From a virus, in IMG/VR virus record IMGVR_UViG_3300015360_000024, positions 129,959-193,958 of that record: a stretch of DNA of 64,000 nucleotides; one strand, 5' to 3'. The position numbers were made by a program, and so were the translations under genes. The notes below the pieces were generated by a model. That model did no database searches, was not told the DNA's origin, and worked only from the letters and a program-made list of their open reading frames with translations. Each line of letters starts with the position of its first letter. Position 1 is the stretch's first letter. Positions 42,673 to 49,245 of the stretch are shown in pieces.

Positions 42673-42825
42673 ATGCCGATCCCGCGCAAGCGCTTGCGTG
42701 TATGGATCGAGAACCGCTACAGGGACGGCACTCGGATGTCGATGGAATCGATCGAGATCGATCGATCGGAAGTGCTAAGGCTGATACATTGCCTGGCCGA
42801 TCTGCTTGATGAGAAGGATAGATGA
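42673..42825 (+). CDS. Small hypothetical protein
   Basis: 3' part of the 42214 ORF fills the gap; start uncertain. Confidence 0.4.
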   Translation: MPIPRKRLRVWIENRYRDGTRMSMESIEIDRSEVLRLIHCLADLLDEKDR

Positions 42826-42826
42826 A

Positions 42827-43201
42827 ATGGTAAAAAAGGAACCGAAGAAAAAGGCCAAGGCAAAGGTCTCTAATGGGGCCAAGGTCTCGAACGGTAGCAA
42901 TGGAGTACATGCTCCTGTTCCTGTTCAGCCTCCTCCTGCGCCGCCATCATTCAGAGCCATTAAGTGGGAGATGGAAGAAGAGGTTCGCGAGTTCAGGGAG
43001 CGCATGGTTGCCAAGTACTCAAACTTCCATGGCCACGATCTTCGCAAAGACCTCTCCTGGTACATGGAGCAGATGGGGATCGGAATTCACAGTGATATAG
43101 AGCGAGCCAAGCGTGATGAGCGCAATAGGCTGATCGCTGCGAATCAGACCGCCGAGAAGCTCGCTGCTGAAACTCAAAAGCTCGACGGCGAGAAGAAATA
43201 G
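42827..43201 (+). CDS. Hypothetical protein
   Basis: AAGGA about 8 nt upstream of ATG 42827. Confidence 0.65.
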   Translation: MVKKEPKKKAKAKVSNGAKVSNGSNGVHAPVPVQPPPAPPSFRAIKWEMEEEVREFRERMVAKYSNFHGHDLRKDLSWYMEQMGIGIHSDIERAKRDERNRLIAANQTAEKLAAETQKLDGEKK

Positions 43202-43215
43202 TCGCAATTTCCTGC

Positions 43216-43243
43216 TTGACTATTTCGCCACCATCCGTAAAGT
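43216..43243 (+). promoter_or_regulatory. Sigma70-type promoter for the ncRNA/Ro60 unit
   Basis: TTGACT-16 nt-TAAAGT; predicted start near 43250. Confidence 0.6.
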
Positions 43244-43252
43244 CACTTCCCA

Positions 43253-43410
43253 AGCGAGCCGAAGTTAGAAGGTTACCAAACCACGAGAAAAACCATGCAG
43301 GGGGACCTGCATGACCCTAAACAAAAGACAGGGCCATCCAAACACGTGTGGGGATACACGTGACTCGCCGTAAAAAGCGAGACATCCAAACCTCCTTCTG
43401 ACATCCCGCT
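43253..43410 (+). ncRNA. Putative Y-RNA-like structured RNA (may extend to ~43500)
   Basis: 5' GCCGAAG; terminal pairings 43264-72/43394-402 and 43253-56/43407-10; four internal hairpins; adjacent to Ro60. Confidence 0.6.
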
Positions 43411-43527
43411 TCCCGGAACTTGTTCGCTAAATTTTTTCAGCAATAGTCGCGGCAAACGACAAACGCTTTCGGGCCCATAACGGGCCCGTCCTTGTCCGAG
43501 GGATCGGACCGAAAAGGAAGCAGCCAG

Positions 43528-45165
43528 ATGACGACCCATTACTCAGATCACGTCAACGAGAAGAAGACCCCGCAGAACCAGAAGGCCAAGGCCGGACAGG
43601 TTCTCAACCAGGCCGGTGGTTTCGTGTTCGCTGTGGACCAGTGGGTCCAGCTGGACCGATTCCTGATCCTCGGCACCGAGGGTGGCACCTACTACGCCTC
43701 CGAGAAGGAGTCGACGGTCAAGGCCGCCGCATGTGTGGAGAAGTGCATCGCCACGGACGGTCTAAAGACTGTTGCTCGCGTCCTTGAGATCAGCGACGGT
43801 GGCCGTGCGCCCAAGAACGATCCGGCACTGCTGGTTCTGGCGATGTGCGCCAAGAAGGGCGACGACGCCACCAAGGCCGCAGCTCGCGCCGCGCTGCCGA
43901 AGGTCGCGCGTATCGGCACGCACCTGTTCACGCTCGCTCAGAACATCGAGGCGTTCGGTGGCTGGGGTCGTTCGACCAAGCGTGCGTTCGCGGACTGGTA
44001 CCAGACGAAGACCCTGTCCTCGGCTGCGTTCCAGGCTGTGAAGTACCAGTCGCGTAACGGCTGGTCGCACCGGGACATCCTGCGTCTAGCGCACCCGAAG
44101 CCGAAGGACGATGGCTTCAAGGCGCTCTTCAAGTGGATCACCAAGGGTGAGCTGGAGGATGTCGCCATCGAAGGCCTGGAGATCGTCAAGGCGTTCGAGG
44201 TCGCGAAGAAGACCAAGGACAAGAAGGAAATCGTTGCGCTGATCAAGGCTCACGGCCTGCAGCGTGAAATGATTCCGACCGAGTTCCTGTCGGAGCCGGA
44301 CGTCTGGGAGGCAATGCTTCCGTCGATGGGCGTCACTGCACTCGTGCGCAACCTGGCGAACATGACGCGTATCGGGCTTCTGAAGCCGATGTCGTCTGCA
44401 ACCAAGTCCGTTATCGCCTCGCTGGAGGACGCGGAGAAGCTGCAGAAGGCGCGTCTGCACCCGATCGCTGTTCTGTCGGCCCTGCTGACGTACAAGTCGG
44501 GCGGCGGTGGTCTGTACTCGAAGTCCCAGCACACCTGGACTCCGCTGACCTCCATCGTCGACGCACTCGATGCAGCGTTCTATAAGACCTTCAAGGCGGT
44601 CGAGCCAGCTGGTAAGCGCACGCTTCTGGCTCTCGACGTCTCGGGCTCGATGGACGGCGGCGTCATCGCGGGCGTGCAGGGTCTAACCCCGCGTATGGGT
44701 TCCTGCGCCATGTCACTCATCACGGCGGCGACCGAGAAGGACCACCACTTCATCGGCTTCACGTCGGGTAGCGGTGGCTGGGGCCGGCCGAAGAGCGGCA
44801 GCGACGACGGCATCACGCAGATCGACATCTCGCCGAAGATGCGTCTGGACCAGGTTGTTCAGAAGGTCAGCGCCCTCCCCATGGGAGGCACGGACTGCGC
44901 TGCGCCGATGGTCTGGGCTCAGAAGCACAAGATCGAGGTCGACACCTTCTGCGTCTACACGGACAGTGAGACGTGGGCTGGCACCATCCAGCCGTTCCAG
45001 GCACTGAAGGAGTACCGCCAGAAGATGGGCATCGGCGCAAAGCTGGTGGTCATCGGAATGACCTCTACGGAGTTCACGATCGCTGACCCGAGCGACGCAG
45101 GTATGATGGACGTCGTTGGATTCGACACGGCAGCCCCGGGTCTGATCAACGACTTCTCTCGGTAA
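43528..45165 (+). CDS. rsr: Ro60/TROVE-domain RNA-binding protein (Rsr-like)
   Basis: NQAGGFVF..LDRFLILGTEGGTYY, GWGRS, KYQSRNGWSHRDILRLAHP, and vWA DVSGSM..GGTDCA..YTDSETW. Confidence 0.95.
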   Translation: MTTHYSDHVNEKKTPQNQKAKAGQVLNQAGGFVFAVDQWVQLDRFLILGTEGGTYYASEKESTVKAAACVEKCIATDGLKTVARVLEISDGGRAPKNDPALLVLAMCAKKGDDATKAAARAALPKVARIGTHLFTLAQNIEAFGGWGRSTKRAFADWYQTKTLSSAAFQAVKYQSRNGWSHRDILRLAHPKPKDDGFKALFKWITKGELEDVAIEGLEIVKAFEVAKKTKDKKEIVALIKAHGLQREMIPTEFLSEPDVWEAMLPSMGVTALVRNLANMTRIGLLKPMSSATKSVIASLEDAEKLQKARLHPIAVLSALLTYKSGGGGLYSKSQHTWTPLTSIVDALDAAFYKTFKAVEPAGKRTLLALDVSGSMDGGVIAGVQGLTPRMGSCAMSLITAATEKDHHFIGFTSGSGGWGRPKSGSDDGITQIDISPKMRLDQVVQKVSALPMGGTDCAAPMVWAQKHKIEVDTFCVYTDSETWAGTIQPFQALKEYRQKMGIGAKLVVIGMTSTEFTIADPSDAGMMDVVGFDTAAPGLINDFSR

Positions 45166-45187: not shown

Positions 45188-45228
45188 CGGCCCGGTCAGG
45201 ATGTTCCTGACCGGGCTGTTTGTTTTTT
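45188..45228 (+). terminator. Intrinsic terminator after Ro60
   Basis: Perfect 11-bp stem GCCCGGTCAGG/CCTGACCGGGC followed by TGTTTGTTTTTT. Confidence 0.9.
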
Positions 45229-45238
45229 GAGGTAACCC

Positions 45239-45592
45239 GTGCCCACTTTGGCCTGCTATCTCCTGCGCGAAGACGGCCAGTGGTACGAGCTGGGCAACCA
45301 TCCGCATTGGCGCACGACATTCGCCGTGTTTCCGGGTGAGGCCGACGGTTCGGTGATGCTAGGGCCGGATGATGTCCCGCTGCTTGCTCTTCGCTTGGAA
45401 GGGTACGGCTACGAGAGCGCAGTGCTGGAGCGCTTGGCGGCCGATATTATTCGTTGGGCGAACGAGGGGAAGAGTCCTCGGGCGACGTGGATTGACCAAG
45501 CCATGGGCAAGTTCAGGTTCATGACCGAACTATGCGCCGAGGTCCCCGTCGATGGATTGCCGTCGCCGATCACAGGTCGCTTTCAGCCGTGA
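45239..45592 (+). CDS. Hypothetical protein
   Basis: GAGG RBS, GTG start. Confidence 0.6.
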   Translation: MPTLACYLLREDGQWYELGNHPHWRTTFAVFPGEADGSVMLGPDDVPLLALRLEGYGYESAVLERLAADIIRWANEGKSPRATWIDQAMGKFRFMTELCAEVPVDGLPSPITGRFQP

Positions 45593-45615: not shown

Positions 45616-46038
45616 ATGGTCAAAGATATTCCAGACCTTGATACGCCGTACGTCTATAACGCGATCCTGGTAAGGATTCTGGACGGCGATACGGCCAGGC
45701 TCAAACTGTGGCGGCCGTTCAAGGCGGAATGGGATTTCGGCTTCTATATCAAAGAGGAAATCCACAGCGTCCGCAGCATCGAGATGAACTGCCGAATGCT
45801 TGGCATCAACACGCCAGAGATCCATGGCGTCTCTAAGGAGATTCAAACCAAGGGTCAGGCTGCAGCGGCGGAGCTGACGAGACTGTTGGGTTTGGGTGAG
45901 ATCCGAGCGAGGACAGCCAAGCCAGACAAATACGGCCGGTGGTTGGCGGATCTATGGGTTACGGATAGCGACGGTAACGTAACCCACGTGAATTCATGGC
46001 TTGTTGAGCATGGGTTCGCAATCTCTTACATGGAGTGA
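45616..46038 (+). CDS. Thermonuclease (SNase-like) family protein
   Basis: ILDGDT, RMLGINTPE, DKYGRWLA and VN.WLVE.GFA motifs. Confidence 0.9.
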   Translation: MVKDIPDLDTPYVYNAILVRILDGDTARLKLWRPFKAEWDFGFYIKEEIHSVRSIEMNCRMLGINTPEIHGVSKEIQTKGQAAAAELTRLLGLGEIRARTAKPDKYGRWLADLWVTDSDGNVTHVNSWLVEHGFAISYME

Positions 46039-46422: not shown

Positions 46423-46785
46423 ATGGAAACCGATTACCTGATCTCCGAGCTGATTAACGAGTCGTACAAGACCGCCGTCGAGAAGGGCTGGTGGGAGAGC
46501 AACGCCGAACGCGAGGTCGGCACCGCCTTGATGTTGATGGTCACCGAACTGGCCGAGGCAATGGAGGAGCACCGAAGCGGGCGTAGCCTGGACGAGATCT
46601 GGCATCAGCCAGAAGGTCATCCGAAGGTTGGCAAGCCGGAGGGTGTTCCGGTCGAGCTTGCCGACGTGATCATCCGCATCTGCGATCTCGCTGGGCACCA
46701 CAAGATCCCACTGAACCGTGCCCTACGCGAGAAGCTCGCCTACAACAAGACCCGTTCATACCGGCACGGTGGCAAGAAAGCCTGA
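46423..46785 (+). CDS. MazG-like nucleotide pyrophosphohydrolase
   Basis: LMVTELAEAMEE..VELADVIIRICD..K.AYN..R pattern. Confidence 0.85.
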   Translation: METDYLISELINESYKTAVEKGWWESNAEREVGTALMLMVTELAEAMEEHRSGRSLDEIWHQPEGHPKVGKPEGVPVELADVIIRICDLAGHHKIPLNRALREKLAYNKTRSYRHGGKKA

Positions 46786-47626: not shown

Positions 47627-47736
47627 AAGAGCCGTCCAGCTCTTGCGCCACGATCGTCACAATGAATTCGTCGCAGAGACAGCGCGCCACATGTTGTGGT
47701 GGCAGCGGCGTGTTCGCAAAAAGGAACAACAAGGCT

Positions 47737-49245
47737 ATGAAGATCACAACTCAGTTCACCTACAACAAGGTGGACTTCAGCAAAGAGAACGAAATCCACG
47801 CGGTTATCACGCTCAAGGCACCGAAGATCGAGTGGGAAAAGAAGCGTCAGCCAATCTGCGTCATTCCAGTGATCGACGTCAGCTCATCGATGGCTGGCGA
47901 CAAGATCGAGTACGCGAAGCAGACCATCCTCAAGCTCATCGACCACCTGGCGCCAGGTGACTACTGTGGGCTCGTGGCGTTCGACTTGAACGTGCATCCG
48001 ATCGCTGAGCCGCGCGAGCTGTCGCAGGGCAATCGCGAGCAGCTCAAGGCGAAGGTCGGGCAGCTGCGTCATAACGGGTCCACCAACTTCTCTGGCGGTA
48101 TGCGTCAGGCATTGGAGTGGATCAATAAGGTCGACGTTGGCAGCGGCATGACGCTCCGTGTGATCATGCTAACTGACGGGCAGGCGAATCAAGGCGAGGC
48201 GACGAAGCGCGAGCAGCTGATCCCGCTATGCAAGAACCTCCTGGGCAAGGCGTCGTTGAGCGCGTTCGGCTACGGCACGGACTGCGACCAGGAACTCCTG
48301 GCTGACCTCGCGAAGGAAGCCAAGGGAAACTACGCATTCATCCGAAACCCGGACGATGCGCTCACGGCGTTCGCCAAGGAGCTTGGCGGCTTGCTGTCCA
48401 GGTACGCACAGGACATCGTCATCGACGTGGCCCCGCACAATGGGCACACAATTGAGGAAGTCCTCAGTGACGTCGATGCGACCGAGGATGGCAAGAAGGT
48501 CTTGGTGAAGATCCCAGAACTTCTGTCCGAGGAGGAGCGGCATATCGTCCTCAAGATCAAGACCTCTGTACAGAGCAAGGCGCTCCCCCGAGAGCTGAAC
48601 GTTCTGGACATCAAGGTCGAATACGATCAGGTCGGCGACGGGAACAAGAAGCACGAGATGCAGGAGTTCAAGGGCAAGCTCTCCTTCGTTAAGTCGGATG
48701 ACGCGCAGAAGGAACCGACCAAGGAAGTCATGGCGATCGTCGGTATCGCGATGACGGTGCAGGCGCAGATCAAGGCAGAGGAGCTGGCCAAGCAGGGCAA
48801 CTTCGTCGGTGCCAGTGCAGCGCTGGTTTCGAATGCTGTGCATCTGGATTCGTTTCAGTTGCACGACCATGCCGGGATGTCGCGTGGTCTGTCGGCCAAG
48901 TACGACAGCCACACTAACTACTCATCGAGTAGTGGTTATCGTGACGTCATGAAAAAGGGGCTGACGCGCAGCTCGGGAACCTCCGACGGTGAAGCCGTCC
49001 AGGTACTCGCGTCAGTCGGCTTGACGTCGTCGAATGCAGCAATGGATCAGCAGGTTCAGAACTTCACAGCTGGTGTGGCTGGCGCTCCGCAGGGGAACGA
49101 TCTGGTCAGCCTTCATGGAAGCATTTCGATCCCTGGAGTTCCGCTGTCTCCTCCAACGCCTGCGCCGGCTGGCGTGAGCCTCAAGGAGGAGCCGAAGACT
49201 AGCGCGAAGTCGCCCGTCTCGAAGAGCAAGTCAAAGCGCTGGTAA
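47737..49245 (+). CDS. von Willebrand factor A domain protein
   Basis: MIDAS DVSSSM, GSTNFSGG, MLTDGQAN, GYGTDCDQELL; ATG 47737 preferred. Confidence 0.9.
   Translation: MKITTQFTYNKVDFSKENEIHAVITLKAPKIEWEKKRQPICVIPVIDVSSSMAGDKIEYAKQTILKLIDHLAPGDYCGLVAFDLNVHPIAEPRELSQGNREQLKAKVGQLRHNGSTNFSGGMRQALEWINKVDVGSGMTLRVIMLTDGQANQGEATKREQLIPLCKNLLGKASLSAFGYGTDCDQELLADLAKEAKGNYAFIRNPDDALTAFAKELGGLLSRYAQDIVIDVAPHNGHTIEEVLSDVDATEDGKKVLVKIPELLSEEERHIVLKIKTSVQSKALPRELNVLDIKVEYDQVGDGNKKHEMQEFKGKLSFVKSDDAQKEPTKEVMAIVGIAMTVQAQIKAEELAKQGNFVGASAALVSNAVHLDSFQLHDHAGMSRGLSAKYDSHTNYSSSSGYRDVMKKGLTRSSGTSDGEAVQVLASVGLTSSNAAMDQQVQNFTAGVAGAPQGNDLVSLHGSISIPGVPLSPPTPAPAGVSLKEEPKTSAKSPVSKSKSKRW

What the first reader, a model, noticed from the sequence alone, without database searches (positions are those of the whole stretch)
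43253..43410. Modular Y-RNA-like ncRNA upstream of phage Ro60, lacking the tRNA-like domain
Seen: right after a TTGACT/TAAAGT promoter the transcript begins AGCGAGCCGAAG. Its ends can pair (GTTAGAAGG 43264-72 with CCTTCTGAC 43394-402; AGCG with CGCT). The interior is a structural tandem duplication, linker CCAAAC - 8-bp stem with GGGA loop - short stem with A-rich loop. Copy 1: CATGCAGG-GGGA-CCTGCATG (43294-313), then CCCT/AGGG. Copy 2: CACGTGTG-GGGA-TACACGTG (43343-62), then CTCGC/GCGAG. CCAAAC recurs at 43276, 43338 and 43386. Different stem sequences with the same shape argue for selection on structure. Known: Ro60/Rsr binds Y RNAs encoded next to its gene; I recall the bacterial 5' motif as GNCGAAN(0-1)G, matched here by GCCGAAG; YrlA types carry a tRNA mimic, which is not visible here. 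Inference: a new Y RNA class whose effector domain displays GGA-loop hairpins, either CsrA/RsmA-sponge-like or GNRA docking, tethered by Ro60.
Basis: partly seen in the sequence, partly recalled or inferred. Interest (0 to 1): 0.85.

Follow-up and report, generated by a model that had tools for sequence, protein, structure and literature searches.

The report
Phage Y RNA with repeated hairpin modules
Just upstream of a giant phage's Ro60 gene lies a real, conserved small RNA with the classic Ro60-binding handle of Y RNAs, but its variable part consists of one to three copies of a hairpin module not described before; what the module does is unknown.

Summary
Window 43252-43428 (+), 18 nt longer than flagged, is a strongly structured non-coding RNA. 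It lies behind a conserved TTGACT/TAAAGT promoter and 100 nt upstream of a phage Ro60 gene (TROVE + vWA).

Twelve metagenomic relatives fold into the same architecture: 95.7% of cells pair, 16 pairs show compensatory changes, and 0/500 shuffles reach this.

One pairing was mis-assigned. The 5' AGCGAGC pairs with GTTCGCT at 43422-28, not with CGCT at 43407-10. This gives a 7-bp helix followed by a single bulged C, the canonical Y RNA handle.

A covariance model built only from other Ro60-linked Y RNAs matches the one-module orthologues end to end (E 8e-8 and 2e-5).

The interior holds 1-3 tandem modules. Each is an 8-9 bp hairpin with an invariant GGGA loop (25 hairpins, at least 16 different stems), then a small A-rich or GNRA hairpin, then a CAUCCAAAC linker. 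No tRNA-like domain is present.

However, the same phage carries five more Y-like RNAs in its tRNA array, and one of them is tRNA-like.

Verdict: a genuine Y RNA with a new effector-domain variant. What the effector does (tether, sponge or gate) is inferred only. This scan has already noted multi-copy Y-like RNAs beside phage Ro60-like genes on other DNA.

The parts
43216..43243 (+). Sigma-70-like promoter, TTGACT (43216-21), 16-nt spacer, TAAAGT (43238-43). The predicted transcription start lies 1-3 nt before the RNA's 5' helix.
   Evidence: the only such site in 42800-43700. TTGACT and a -10-like hexamer are kept in all 12 homologous loci.
43252..43428 (+). Y RNA, 177 nt in full extent.
   Evidence: No conserved ORF across it.
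43253..43262 (+). 5' strand of the Ro60-binding handle: AGCGAGC (7-bp helix), bulged C43260, then G43261 A43262. It contains GCCGAAG, which fits the GNCGAAN0-1G motif.
   Evidence: G-C to C-G covariation; CCG invariant. Motif definition from PMC4201824.
43264..43277 (+). Upper-stem 5' strand GTTAGAAGG (43264-72) running into GGTTACC, the counterpart of the GGGUUAUC/UUAUC motif of Y RNAs and sbRNAs.
   Evidence: 5 pairs in this helix change on both sides. Motif comparison.
43294..43313 (+). Module 1, hairpin A: 8-bp stem with a GGGA loop at 43302-05.
   Evidence: (5 of 8 pairs change on both sides).
43315..43333 (+). Module 1, hairpin B: CCCT/AGGG stem with an 11-nt A-rich loop, followed by the linker CCATCCAAAC.
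43343..43362 (+). Module 2, hairpin A: 8-bp stem with a GGGA loop at 43351-54.
43364..43381 (+). Module 2, hairpin B: CTCGC/GCGAG stem with loop CGTAAAAA, followed by the linker ACATCCAAAC.
43394..43405 (+). Upper-stem 3' strand CCTTCTGAC (43394-402), then A, then TC, which pairs with G43261 and A43262.
   Evidence: The GA/UC pair becomes GG/CC in L002 and GU/AC in L008 and L021.
43406..43416 (+). Small optional hairpin inside the 3' bulge. Present in 9 of 12 homologues with different stems.
43419..43428 (+). CTTGTTCGCT: the 3' strand of the handle. GTTCGCT (43422-28) pairs with 43253-59. TTGTTCG is near-invariant.
43432..43437 (+). T-run after the closing helix, probably a leaky terminator. 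T-rich tails also follow the homologues and the five paralogues.
   Evidence: Not called by the simple terminator scan.
43443..43527 (+). Very conserved Ro60 5' leader with two hairpins and the Shine-Dalgarno AAGGAAG. This is context and the subject of a separate note; no separate promoter is seen.
43528..45165 (+). Ro60 gene (TROVE + Ro60 vWA domains), 545 aa.
   Evidence: PF05731 6e-39, PF25045 2e-62; phrog_850.

Best explanation
This is a Y RNA, the non-coding partner of the phage's own Ro60. It is transcribed from the TTGACT/TAAAGT promoter so that its 5' end is the 5' strand of the handle. It ends at, or is processed near, the T-run at 43432-37, and read-through supplies the Ro60 mRNA. 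Ro60 binds the handle: a 7-bp helix, a single bulged C, and conserved CCG on the 5' strand and UUG on the 3' strand. The rest of the RNA is an effector domain made by tandem duplication of a ~48-nt module: an 8-9 bp hairpin with an invariant GGGA tetraloop, an A spacer, a short hairpin with an A-rich or GNRA loop, and a single-stranded CAUCCAAAC linker. My most likely mechanism is inferred by analogy with the Deinococcus RYPER complex and Thermus phage phiLo. In it, the modules are repeated docking sites that tether Ro60 to a partner, most plausibly a host exoribonuclease such as PNPase, or else a phage protein. Copy number (1-3) would set the valency. This RNA is one member of a set of at least six Y RNAs in this phage. 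They share the handle and carry different cargo: minimal loops, a tRNA-like domain, or GGGA modules.
For: Shown: Ro60 lies 100 nt downstream on the same strand. The structure is conserved and covaries in 12 loci. Across those loci there are 25 GGGA hairpins with at least 16 different stems. Module number is 1, 2 or 3 in different relatives. The promoter is conserved and there is no conserved ORF. Model R1, built from 11 minimal Y-like RNAs with none from this family, matches the one-module orthologues over its full length: L021 37.9 bits, E 8e-8, and L008 28.3 bits, E 2e-5. Paralogues in the same genome match Rfam sbRNA RF01656 (31.8 bits, below the 38-bit gathering score) and, far below its own threshold, Y_RNA RF00019; the alignments share CCGAAG, GGGUUAYC, CUUG and UUUU at the same spacing. 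The handle signature travels with Ro60: 4 of 4 complete IMG/VR phages that carry it encode TROVE, and 12 of 34 bacterial hits have Ro60 within the fetched locus, on the same strand in all but one. From the literature: Ro60 recognises a 7-bp helix with a bulged C (PMC4726728); the GNCGAAN0-1G motif (PMC4201824); phage phiLo Ro60 binds two upstream Y-like RNAs and host PNPase (PMC12135203); M. smegmatis Y RNAs are processed from the rsr precursor.
Against: No transcript, binding or processing data exist, and the host is unknown. The window RNA itself is not reported by Rfam Y_RNA, sbRNA or YrlA or by R1; the likely cause, which I did not verify, is that these small models cannot bridge the ~120-nt insert. 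Its membership therefore rests on orthology to L021 and L008 plus direct inspection. The strict GNCGAAN0-1G motif holds in the window and five relatives but varies in the others (ACCGAAG or ACCGAAA, GCCGGAG, GCCGUCG, GCCGUAG). The partner of the modules is pure inference: the phage encodes no PNPase, Hfq, CsrA or RtcB. The T-run is separated from the helix by AAA and is not called as a terminator.
Confidence: 0.8

Rival explanations
1. Ro60-stabilised sponge. The GGGA hairpins sequester a GGA-binding host regulator of the CsrA/RsmA type, or another loop-specific RNA-binding protein. Ro60 would serve mainly to protect the decoy from exonucleases.
For: GGGA is invariant in 25 hairpins while the stems drift, which argues for sequence-specific reading of the loop rather than mere stability. 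Repeated units with variable copy number are typical of sponges. Three of the five GGGA-loop hairpins in 194 kb lie at this locus.
Against: Only 1-3 sites, against 5-22 in RsmZ/CsrB (my own knowledge). The GGA lies in a closed G[GGGA]C tetraloop without the A(N)GGA context. A degenerate second hairpin in L002 carries GAAA instead, which fits a GNRA fold better than GGA reading. There is no CsrA in the phage and the host is unknown. There is no genome-wide set of GGGA hairpins to compete for.
Confidence: 0.1
2. Self-contained structural plug. The GNRA-type loops dock into neighbouring helices to build a compact domain that only gates access to the Ro60 cavity, with no external partner.
For: Both hairpin types carry GNRA or GNRA-like loops (GGGA, GCAA, GAAA, GUAAAA). 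The hairpin B stems (CCCU/AGGG, CUCGC/GCGAG) contain typical minor-groove receptor steps (my own knowledge). A gating role for Y RNAs is established (PMC4201824, PMC4726728).
Against: A fold built on docking should not tolerate 1, 2 or 3 modules equally well. The single-stranded CAUCCAAAC linkers are conserved without any partner in the RNA.
Confidence: 0.15
3. Purely cis-acting leader of the Ro60 mRNA that acts in attenuation or stability, not a separate RNA.
For: No second promoter is seen between the RNA and Ro60, and the T-run is imperfect, so read-through is likely.
Against: The same handle occurs in five free-standing copies inside the tRNA array 124 kb away, each followed by a U-run, and in other phages and bacteria. 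Known Y RNAs are cut out of rsr precursors.
Confidence: 0.07

Closest known systems
Bacterial Y RNAs (D. radiodurans Yrn1/Yrn2; Salmonella and M. smegmatis YrlA/YrlB; Rfam RF02553) - Chen et al. 2014, PMC4201824
   Same: Encoded beside Ro60 on the same strand. The 5' GNCGAAN0-1G motif sits in a terminal stem. There are several Y RNAs per genome with different loops. They are likely processed from the Ro60 precursor.
   Different: No T-arm/D-arm tRNA-like domain and no YrlA or tRNA match. The effector is instead 1-3 tandem GGGA-hairpin modules, which the papers I read do not describe.
Thermus phage phiLo Yrl1/Yrl2 with phiRo60 (NAR 2025, PMC12135203)
   Same: Phage-encoded Y-like RNAs directly upstream of the phage Ro60, recognised by a CGAA motif and a stem-bulge-stem shape. 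Shown there to bind Ro60 and host PNPase.
   Different: No sequence relation was tested. The part of that paper I read does not mention repeated modules.
Metazoan Y RNAs and nematode sbRNAs (Rfam RF00019, RF01656; review PMC4726728)
   Same: 7-bp lower helix, single bulged C, CCGA(A)G, a 9-bp upper stem at the same spacing, GGUUAYC right after it, CUUG on the 3' strand and a U tail (alignments).
   Different: The loop is replaced by a ~120-nt modular insert. The window RNA has no GUG-CAC upper-stem motif. Transcription is from a bacterial-type promoter.
CsrB/RsmZ-type protein sponges
   Same: Repeated hairpins displaying a GGA-containing loop, with variable repeat number.
   Different: Few sites, closed tetraloops, no CsrA in the phage, embedded in a Y RNA handle.

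Membership tests
Y RNA (Ro60-associated ncRNA) | Encoded close to a Ro60/TROVE gene, on the same strand | tested here: met
   The RNA ends at 43428. Ro60 (TROVE + vWA_Ro60) starts at 43528 on the + strand. The arrangement is the same in 12 homologous loci.
Y RNA (Ro60-associated ncRNA) | 5' and 3' ends pair into a lower helix of about 7 bp with a single bulged C and the conserved 5' motif (GGUCCGA in animals; GNCGAAN0-1G in bacteria) | tested here: met
   AGCGAGC (43253-59) pairs with GTTCGCT (43422-28), C43260 is bulged, and GCCGAAG fits the motif. CCG is invariant in 12/12. The strict motif holds in 6/12.
Y RNA (Ro60-associated ncRNA) | Matches an independent model of Ro60-linked Y RNA handles | tested here: inconclusive
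   R1, built without this family, hits the one-module orthologues L021 (37.9 bits, E 8e-8) and L008 (28.3 bits, E 2e-5) full length. It does not report the two-module window RNA, nor do Rfam Y_RNA or sbRNA. The likely cause, not verified, is the ~120-nt insert.
Y RNA (Ro60-associated ncRNA) | Physically bound by Ro60 and stabilised by it; a discrete transcript | not testable with these tools
   Needs Northern/RACE, RIP or EMSA.
YrlA-type Y RNA (Rfam RF02553) | Internal tRNA-like domain (T-arm, D-arm, acceptor-like stem) | tested here: not met
   No YrlA or tRNA match at E<=10 around the locus and no ARAGORN hit in the window. Positive controls: YrlA hits upstream of Ro60 in phages Cashline (42 bits) and McWolfish (36 bits), both below the 69-bit gathering score. 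A paralogue elsewhere in this phage does carry a tRNA-like core (tRNA model 34 bits).
CsrB/RsmZ-type CsrA sponge | Many GGA motifs in an A(N)GGA context in loops or single strands | tested here: not met
   Only 2 GGGA loops here (1-3 in relatives), each closed by a G-C pair with no flanking A.
CsrB/RsmZ-type CsrA sponge | A CsrA/RsmA protein present in the system | tested here: inconclusive
   No CsrA (PF02599) in the 194-kb phage record. The host is unknown.

The most novel reading that the evidence does not exclude
The GGGA module is a portable, copy-number-tunable docking site for a specific host or phage factor. This phage clade would then use one Ro60 with a library of Y RNAs (minimal, tRNA-like, GGGA-modular) as a programmable RNP scaffold that points Ro60, or an associated nuclease, at different targets during infection, for example in counter-defence.
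Probability: 0.3. Interest if true: 0.75.

Novelty: new variant of a known kind. Interest (0 to 1): 0.58.

Why it matters
Y RNAs are thought to work as modular adaptors: a constant Ro60 handle plus a variable effector that chooses the partner. Only one bacterial effector type, the tRNA mimic that contacts PNPase, is understood. This locus gives a second, clearly defined effector architecture. It has natural copy-number variants of 1, 2 and 3 modules, an invariant loop and drifting stems. It also sits in a phage that carries five other Y RNAs with the same handle. That makes the idea that the effector decides the partner directly testable by pull-downs with natural variants. It also adds to growing evidence that large phages deploy Ro60-Y RNA particles, possibly against host defences (Bas63 gp130, bioRxiv 10.1101/2024.10.10.617714).

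Tried and rejected
- Rfam at gathering and at E<=10 on the locus found nothing relevant; the only hit was an MS2 operator at E 3.7, which is chance.
- GenBank phages hold no DNA match to the 411-nt region.
- IMG/VR holds no close Ro60 relative. The leader word there found only a coding chance match. A leader pattern found nothing. A handle-plus-first-GGGA pattern gave one chance hit.
- Four of eleven contig look-ups returned no DNA.
- Records behind metagenome loci could not be searched for paralogues.
- R1 on the window does not report the RNA, probably because it cannot span the insert, so that test is uninformative.
- My first genome pattern was off by one base. By luck it exposed the paralogue cluster.
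- Coding potential is rejected: ORF lengths, frames and sequences are not conserved.
- A GGGA-hairpin regulon is rejected: only 5 such hairpins in 194 kb.
- AATAGTCGC, repeated at 43198 and 43443, is no more frequent than chance in the window.
- Base-pairing of the CCAAAC linkers with the GGTTTTG repeats of the vWA leader was considered and dropped, because the words are not complementary in register.
- The resemblance of hairpin B (CCCUGAAAAGAGGG in some relatives) to lambda boxB was dropped, because that loop is not conserved.

Full report
**What is there.**
- The 158-nt stretch folds as described: -52.2 kcal/mol, z -4.5.
- The downstream gene at 43528-45165 is a full Ro60, with TROVE 6e-39 and Ro60-vWA 2e-62.
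- The window is the last 64 kb of a 194-kb IMG/VR phage record, estimated 91% complete.
- Rfam finds no family here at any threshold. ARAGORN finds no tRNA in the window.

**Relatives.**
- The Ro60 protein has a tight clade of metagenomic relatives at 60-94% identity.
- Contig look-ups and one scan for a word in the Ro60 leader gave 12 distinct homologous loci.
- In all of them a 225-350-nt non-coding gap precedes Ro60 and begins with TTGACT plus a -10-like hexamer. This is the only promoter-like site in the window region.
- ORFs across the gap are not conserved in length, frame or sequence.

**Structure and correction.**
- Each homologue, folded alone, gives the same architecture.
- A single bulged C (43260) follows. 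Then come two pairs: GA/UC here, GG/CC in L002, and GU/AC in L008 and L021.
- Nine of the 12 loci also have a small hairpin in the 3' bulge.
- The RNA is therefore 43252-43428, 177 nt, -58.8 kcal/mol, z -4.3. A T-run at 43432-37 follows.
- On the 12-sequence alignment A2, 95.7% of cells pair, against 26-49% when partners are slid. Sixteen pairs change on both sides, against 3-4 when slid and 0/500 shuffles. Every helix contributes.

**Modules.**
- Relatives carry one module (L008, L021), about one and a half (L002), two (window, L005, L006, L012, L016) or three (L003, L011, L014, L018).
- Each module has an 8-9 bp hairpin whose loop is GGGA in all 25 cases, with at least 16 different stems.
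- An A spacer follows, then a 4-6 bp hairpin whose loop varies (GCAA, GAAA, GUAAAA, GAAAAG, AUA and longer A-rich loops), then the linker (N)CAUCCAAAC.
- A degenerate second hairpin in L002 has GAAA.
- Hairpins of 6 bp or more with a GGGA loop are rare in the genome: 5 in 194 kb, three of them at this locus.

**Is it a Y RNA?**
- It also fits the bacterial motif GNCGAAN0-1G (PMC4201824).
- A mistyped pattern led me to a second locus in the same phage, inside its tRNA array of 19 tRNAs. It lies on the minus strand of G000:C1, outside the window.
- That locus holds five more RNAs with the same handle, each followed by a U-run. Four are 60-75-nt hairpins. One, of 126 nt, has a tRNA-like core that scores 34 bits on the tRNA model.
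- Two of the short ones match the nematode sbRNA family: 31.8 and 25.6 bits, against a gathering score of 38. One also aligns to metazoan Y_RNA at only 17.4 bits (E 0.26). The alignments show CCGAAG, GGGUUAYC, CCCA, CUUG and a U tail at the same spacing.
- The window RNA has these same elements: CCGAAG, a 9-nt strand, then GGUUACC.
- I built a covariance model (R1) from these four RNAs plus seven similar RNAs found in IMG/VR phages. It excludes the Ro60-upstream family.
- R1 matches the one-module orthologues over its whole length: L021 at 37.9 bits, E 8e-8, and L008 at 28.3 bits, E 2e-5. The module is treated as a loop insertion.
- R1 does not report the window RNA itself. The likely reason, which I did not verify, is that it cannot span the 120-nt insert of the two-module form.
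- The handle travels with Ro60. Four of four complete IMG/VR phages that carry it encode TROVE.
- Of 34 bacterial pattern hits (Planctomycetota, Deinococcales, Polyangiaceae and others), 12 have Ro60 within the fetched locus. It is on the same strand in 11 of them, and in most it starts 35-450 nt downstream of the RNA.
- As a positive control, the YrlA model detects tRNA-like Y RNAs upstream of Ro60 in phages Cashline and McWolfish, although both hits (42.2 and 36.1 bits) fall below its 69-bit gathering score. It finds nothing in the window or in L017.
- L017, whose Ro60 is 67% identical, has two tandem Y RNAs with this handle but quite different interiors.

**Mechanism.**
- Shown: a conserved, covarying, non-coding structure with the Y RNA handle, its own promoter, beside Ro60.
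- Inferred: Ro60 binds the handle, and the modules form the effector.
- By analogy with RYPER and with phage phiLo, where Ro60, Y-like RNAs and host PNPase form complexes (PMC12135203), I favour a tether with repeated docking sites.
- The invariant GGGA and the conserved single-stranded linker are the likely contact points.
- The phage encodes no PNPase, Hfq, CsrA or RtcB, so a partner from that list would be the host's.
- Downstream genes kept in synteny include an SNase-like nuclease, a MazG-like pyrophosphatase and a vWA protein.
- The sponge, plug and cis-leader readings remain open, with the odds given in the rivals section.

**Novelty.**
- Phage Y RNAs, several Y RNAs per genome, and Y RNAs without tRNA-like domains are all in print.
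- This scan has already noted multi-copy Y-like RNAs with swappable inserts beside phage Ro60-like genes on other DNA.
- What I did not find described is this effector: tandem GGGA-hairpin modules with natural copy-number variation.
- I rate it a new variant of a known kind.

Noticed in passing
Own genome G000:C1:47876-49612, minus strand (outside the window; L031:3877-5613): Five further Y-like RNAs lie inside the phage's tRNA array. Four are 60-75-nt stem-bulge hairpins. One, of 126 nt, has a tRNA-like core (tRNA model 34 bits). All share the CGAGCCG...GUUCG handle with compensatory outer pairs, and each is followed by a U-run. Two match Rfam sbRNA RF01656 below threshold.
   Followed up: partly
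window 43443-43527: The Ro60 5' leader is almost invariant across relatives whose Ro60 is only 76-94% identical, so it is more conserved than the Y RNA. The GGGCCC hairpin shows compensatory changes. The second hairpin has a variable loop (GGGA, GGAU, GGGU, GGAA) and ends in GGACCGAAAAGG next to the Shine-Dalgarno sequence. Another note (e1-5875020) reads it as a permuted Ro60 site for autoregulation.
   Followed up: partly
L033, L035, L037-L040, L043 (IMG/VR) and L050-L083 (bacterial genomes): The minimal Y RNA handle with GGGUUAYC right after the upper stem is widespread in Ro60-encoding phages and in Planctomycetota, Deinococcales, Polyangiaceae and others. The motif equals the UUAUC loop motif reported as functionally important in nematode sbRNAs and vertebrate Y RNAs.
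   Followed up: partly
L023:2570-2641 (Mycobacterium phage McWolfish): R1 gives a weak hit (19.7 bits, E 0.003) about 65 nt upstream of the YrlA-like element and 330 nt upstream of Ro60. It may be an unannotated second Y RNA in Bixzunavirus phages and overlaps annotated hypothetical gene 228.
   Followed up: no
L017:152-420 and 480-637: In a relative whose Ro60 is 67% identical, two tandem Y RNAs share the handle but carry unrelated multi-hairpin interiors of 269 and 158 nt. A third handle-like element lies at 48-113 (R1 16 bits).
   Followed up: partly
window 45616-46038, 46423-46785, 47662-49245: An SNase-like endonuclease, a MazG-like pyrophosphatase and a vWA-domain protein lie downstream of Ro60. 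SNase and vWA are kept in synteny in several relatives, so they are candidate phage-encoded partners.
   Followed up: no
window 45209-45243, minus strand: A hairpin containing GGGUUACC lies just past the Ro60 stop codon and gives a weak partial R1 hit (10.2 bits, E 0.11). It is probably a terminator-like hairpin or chance.
   Followed up: no
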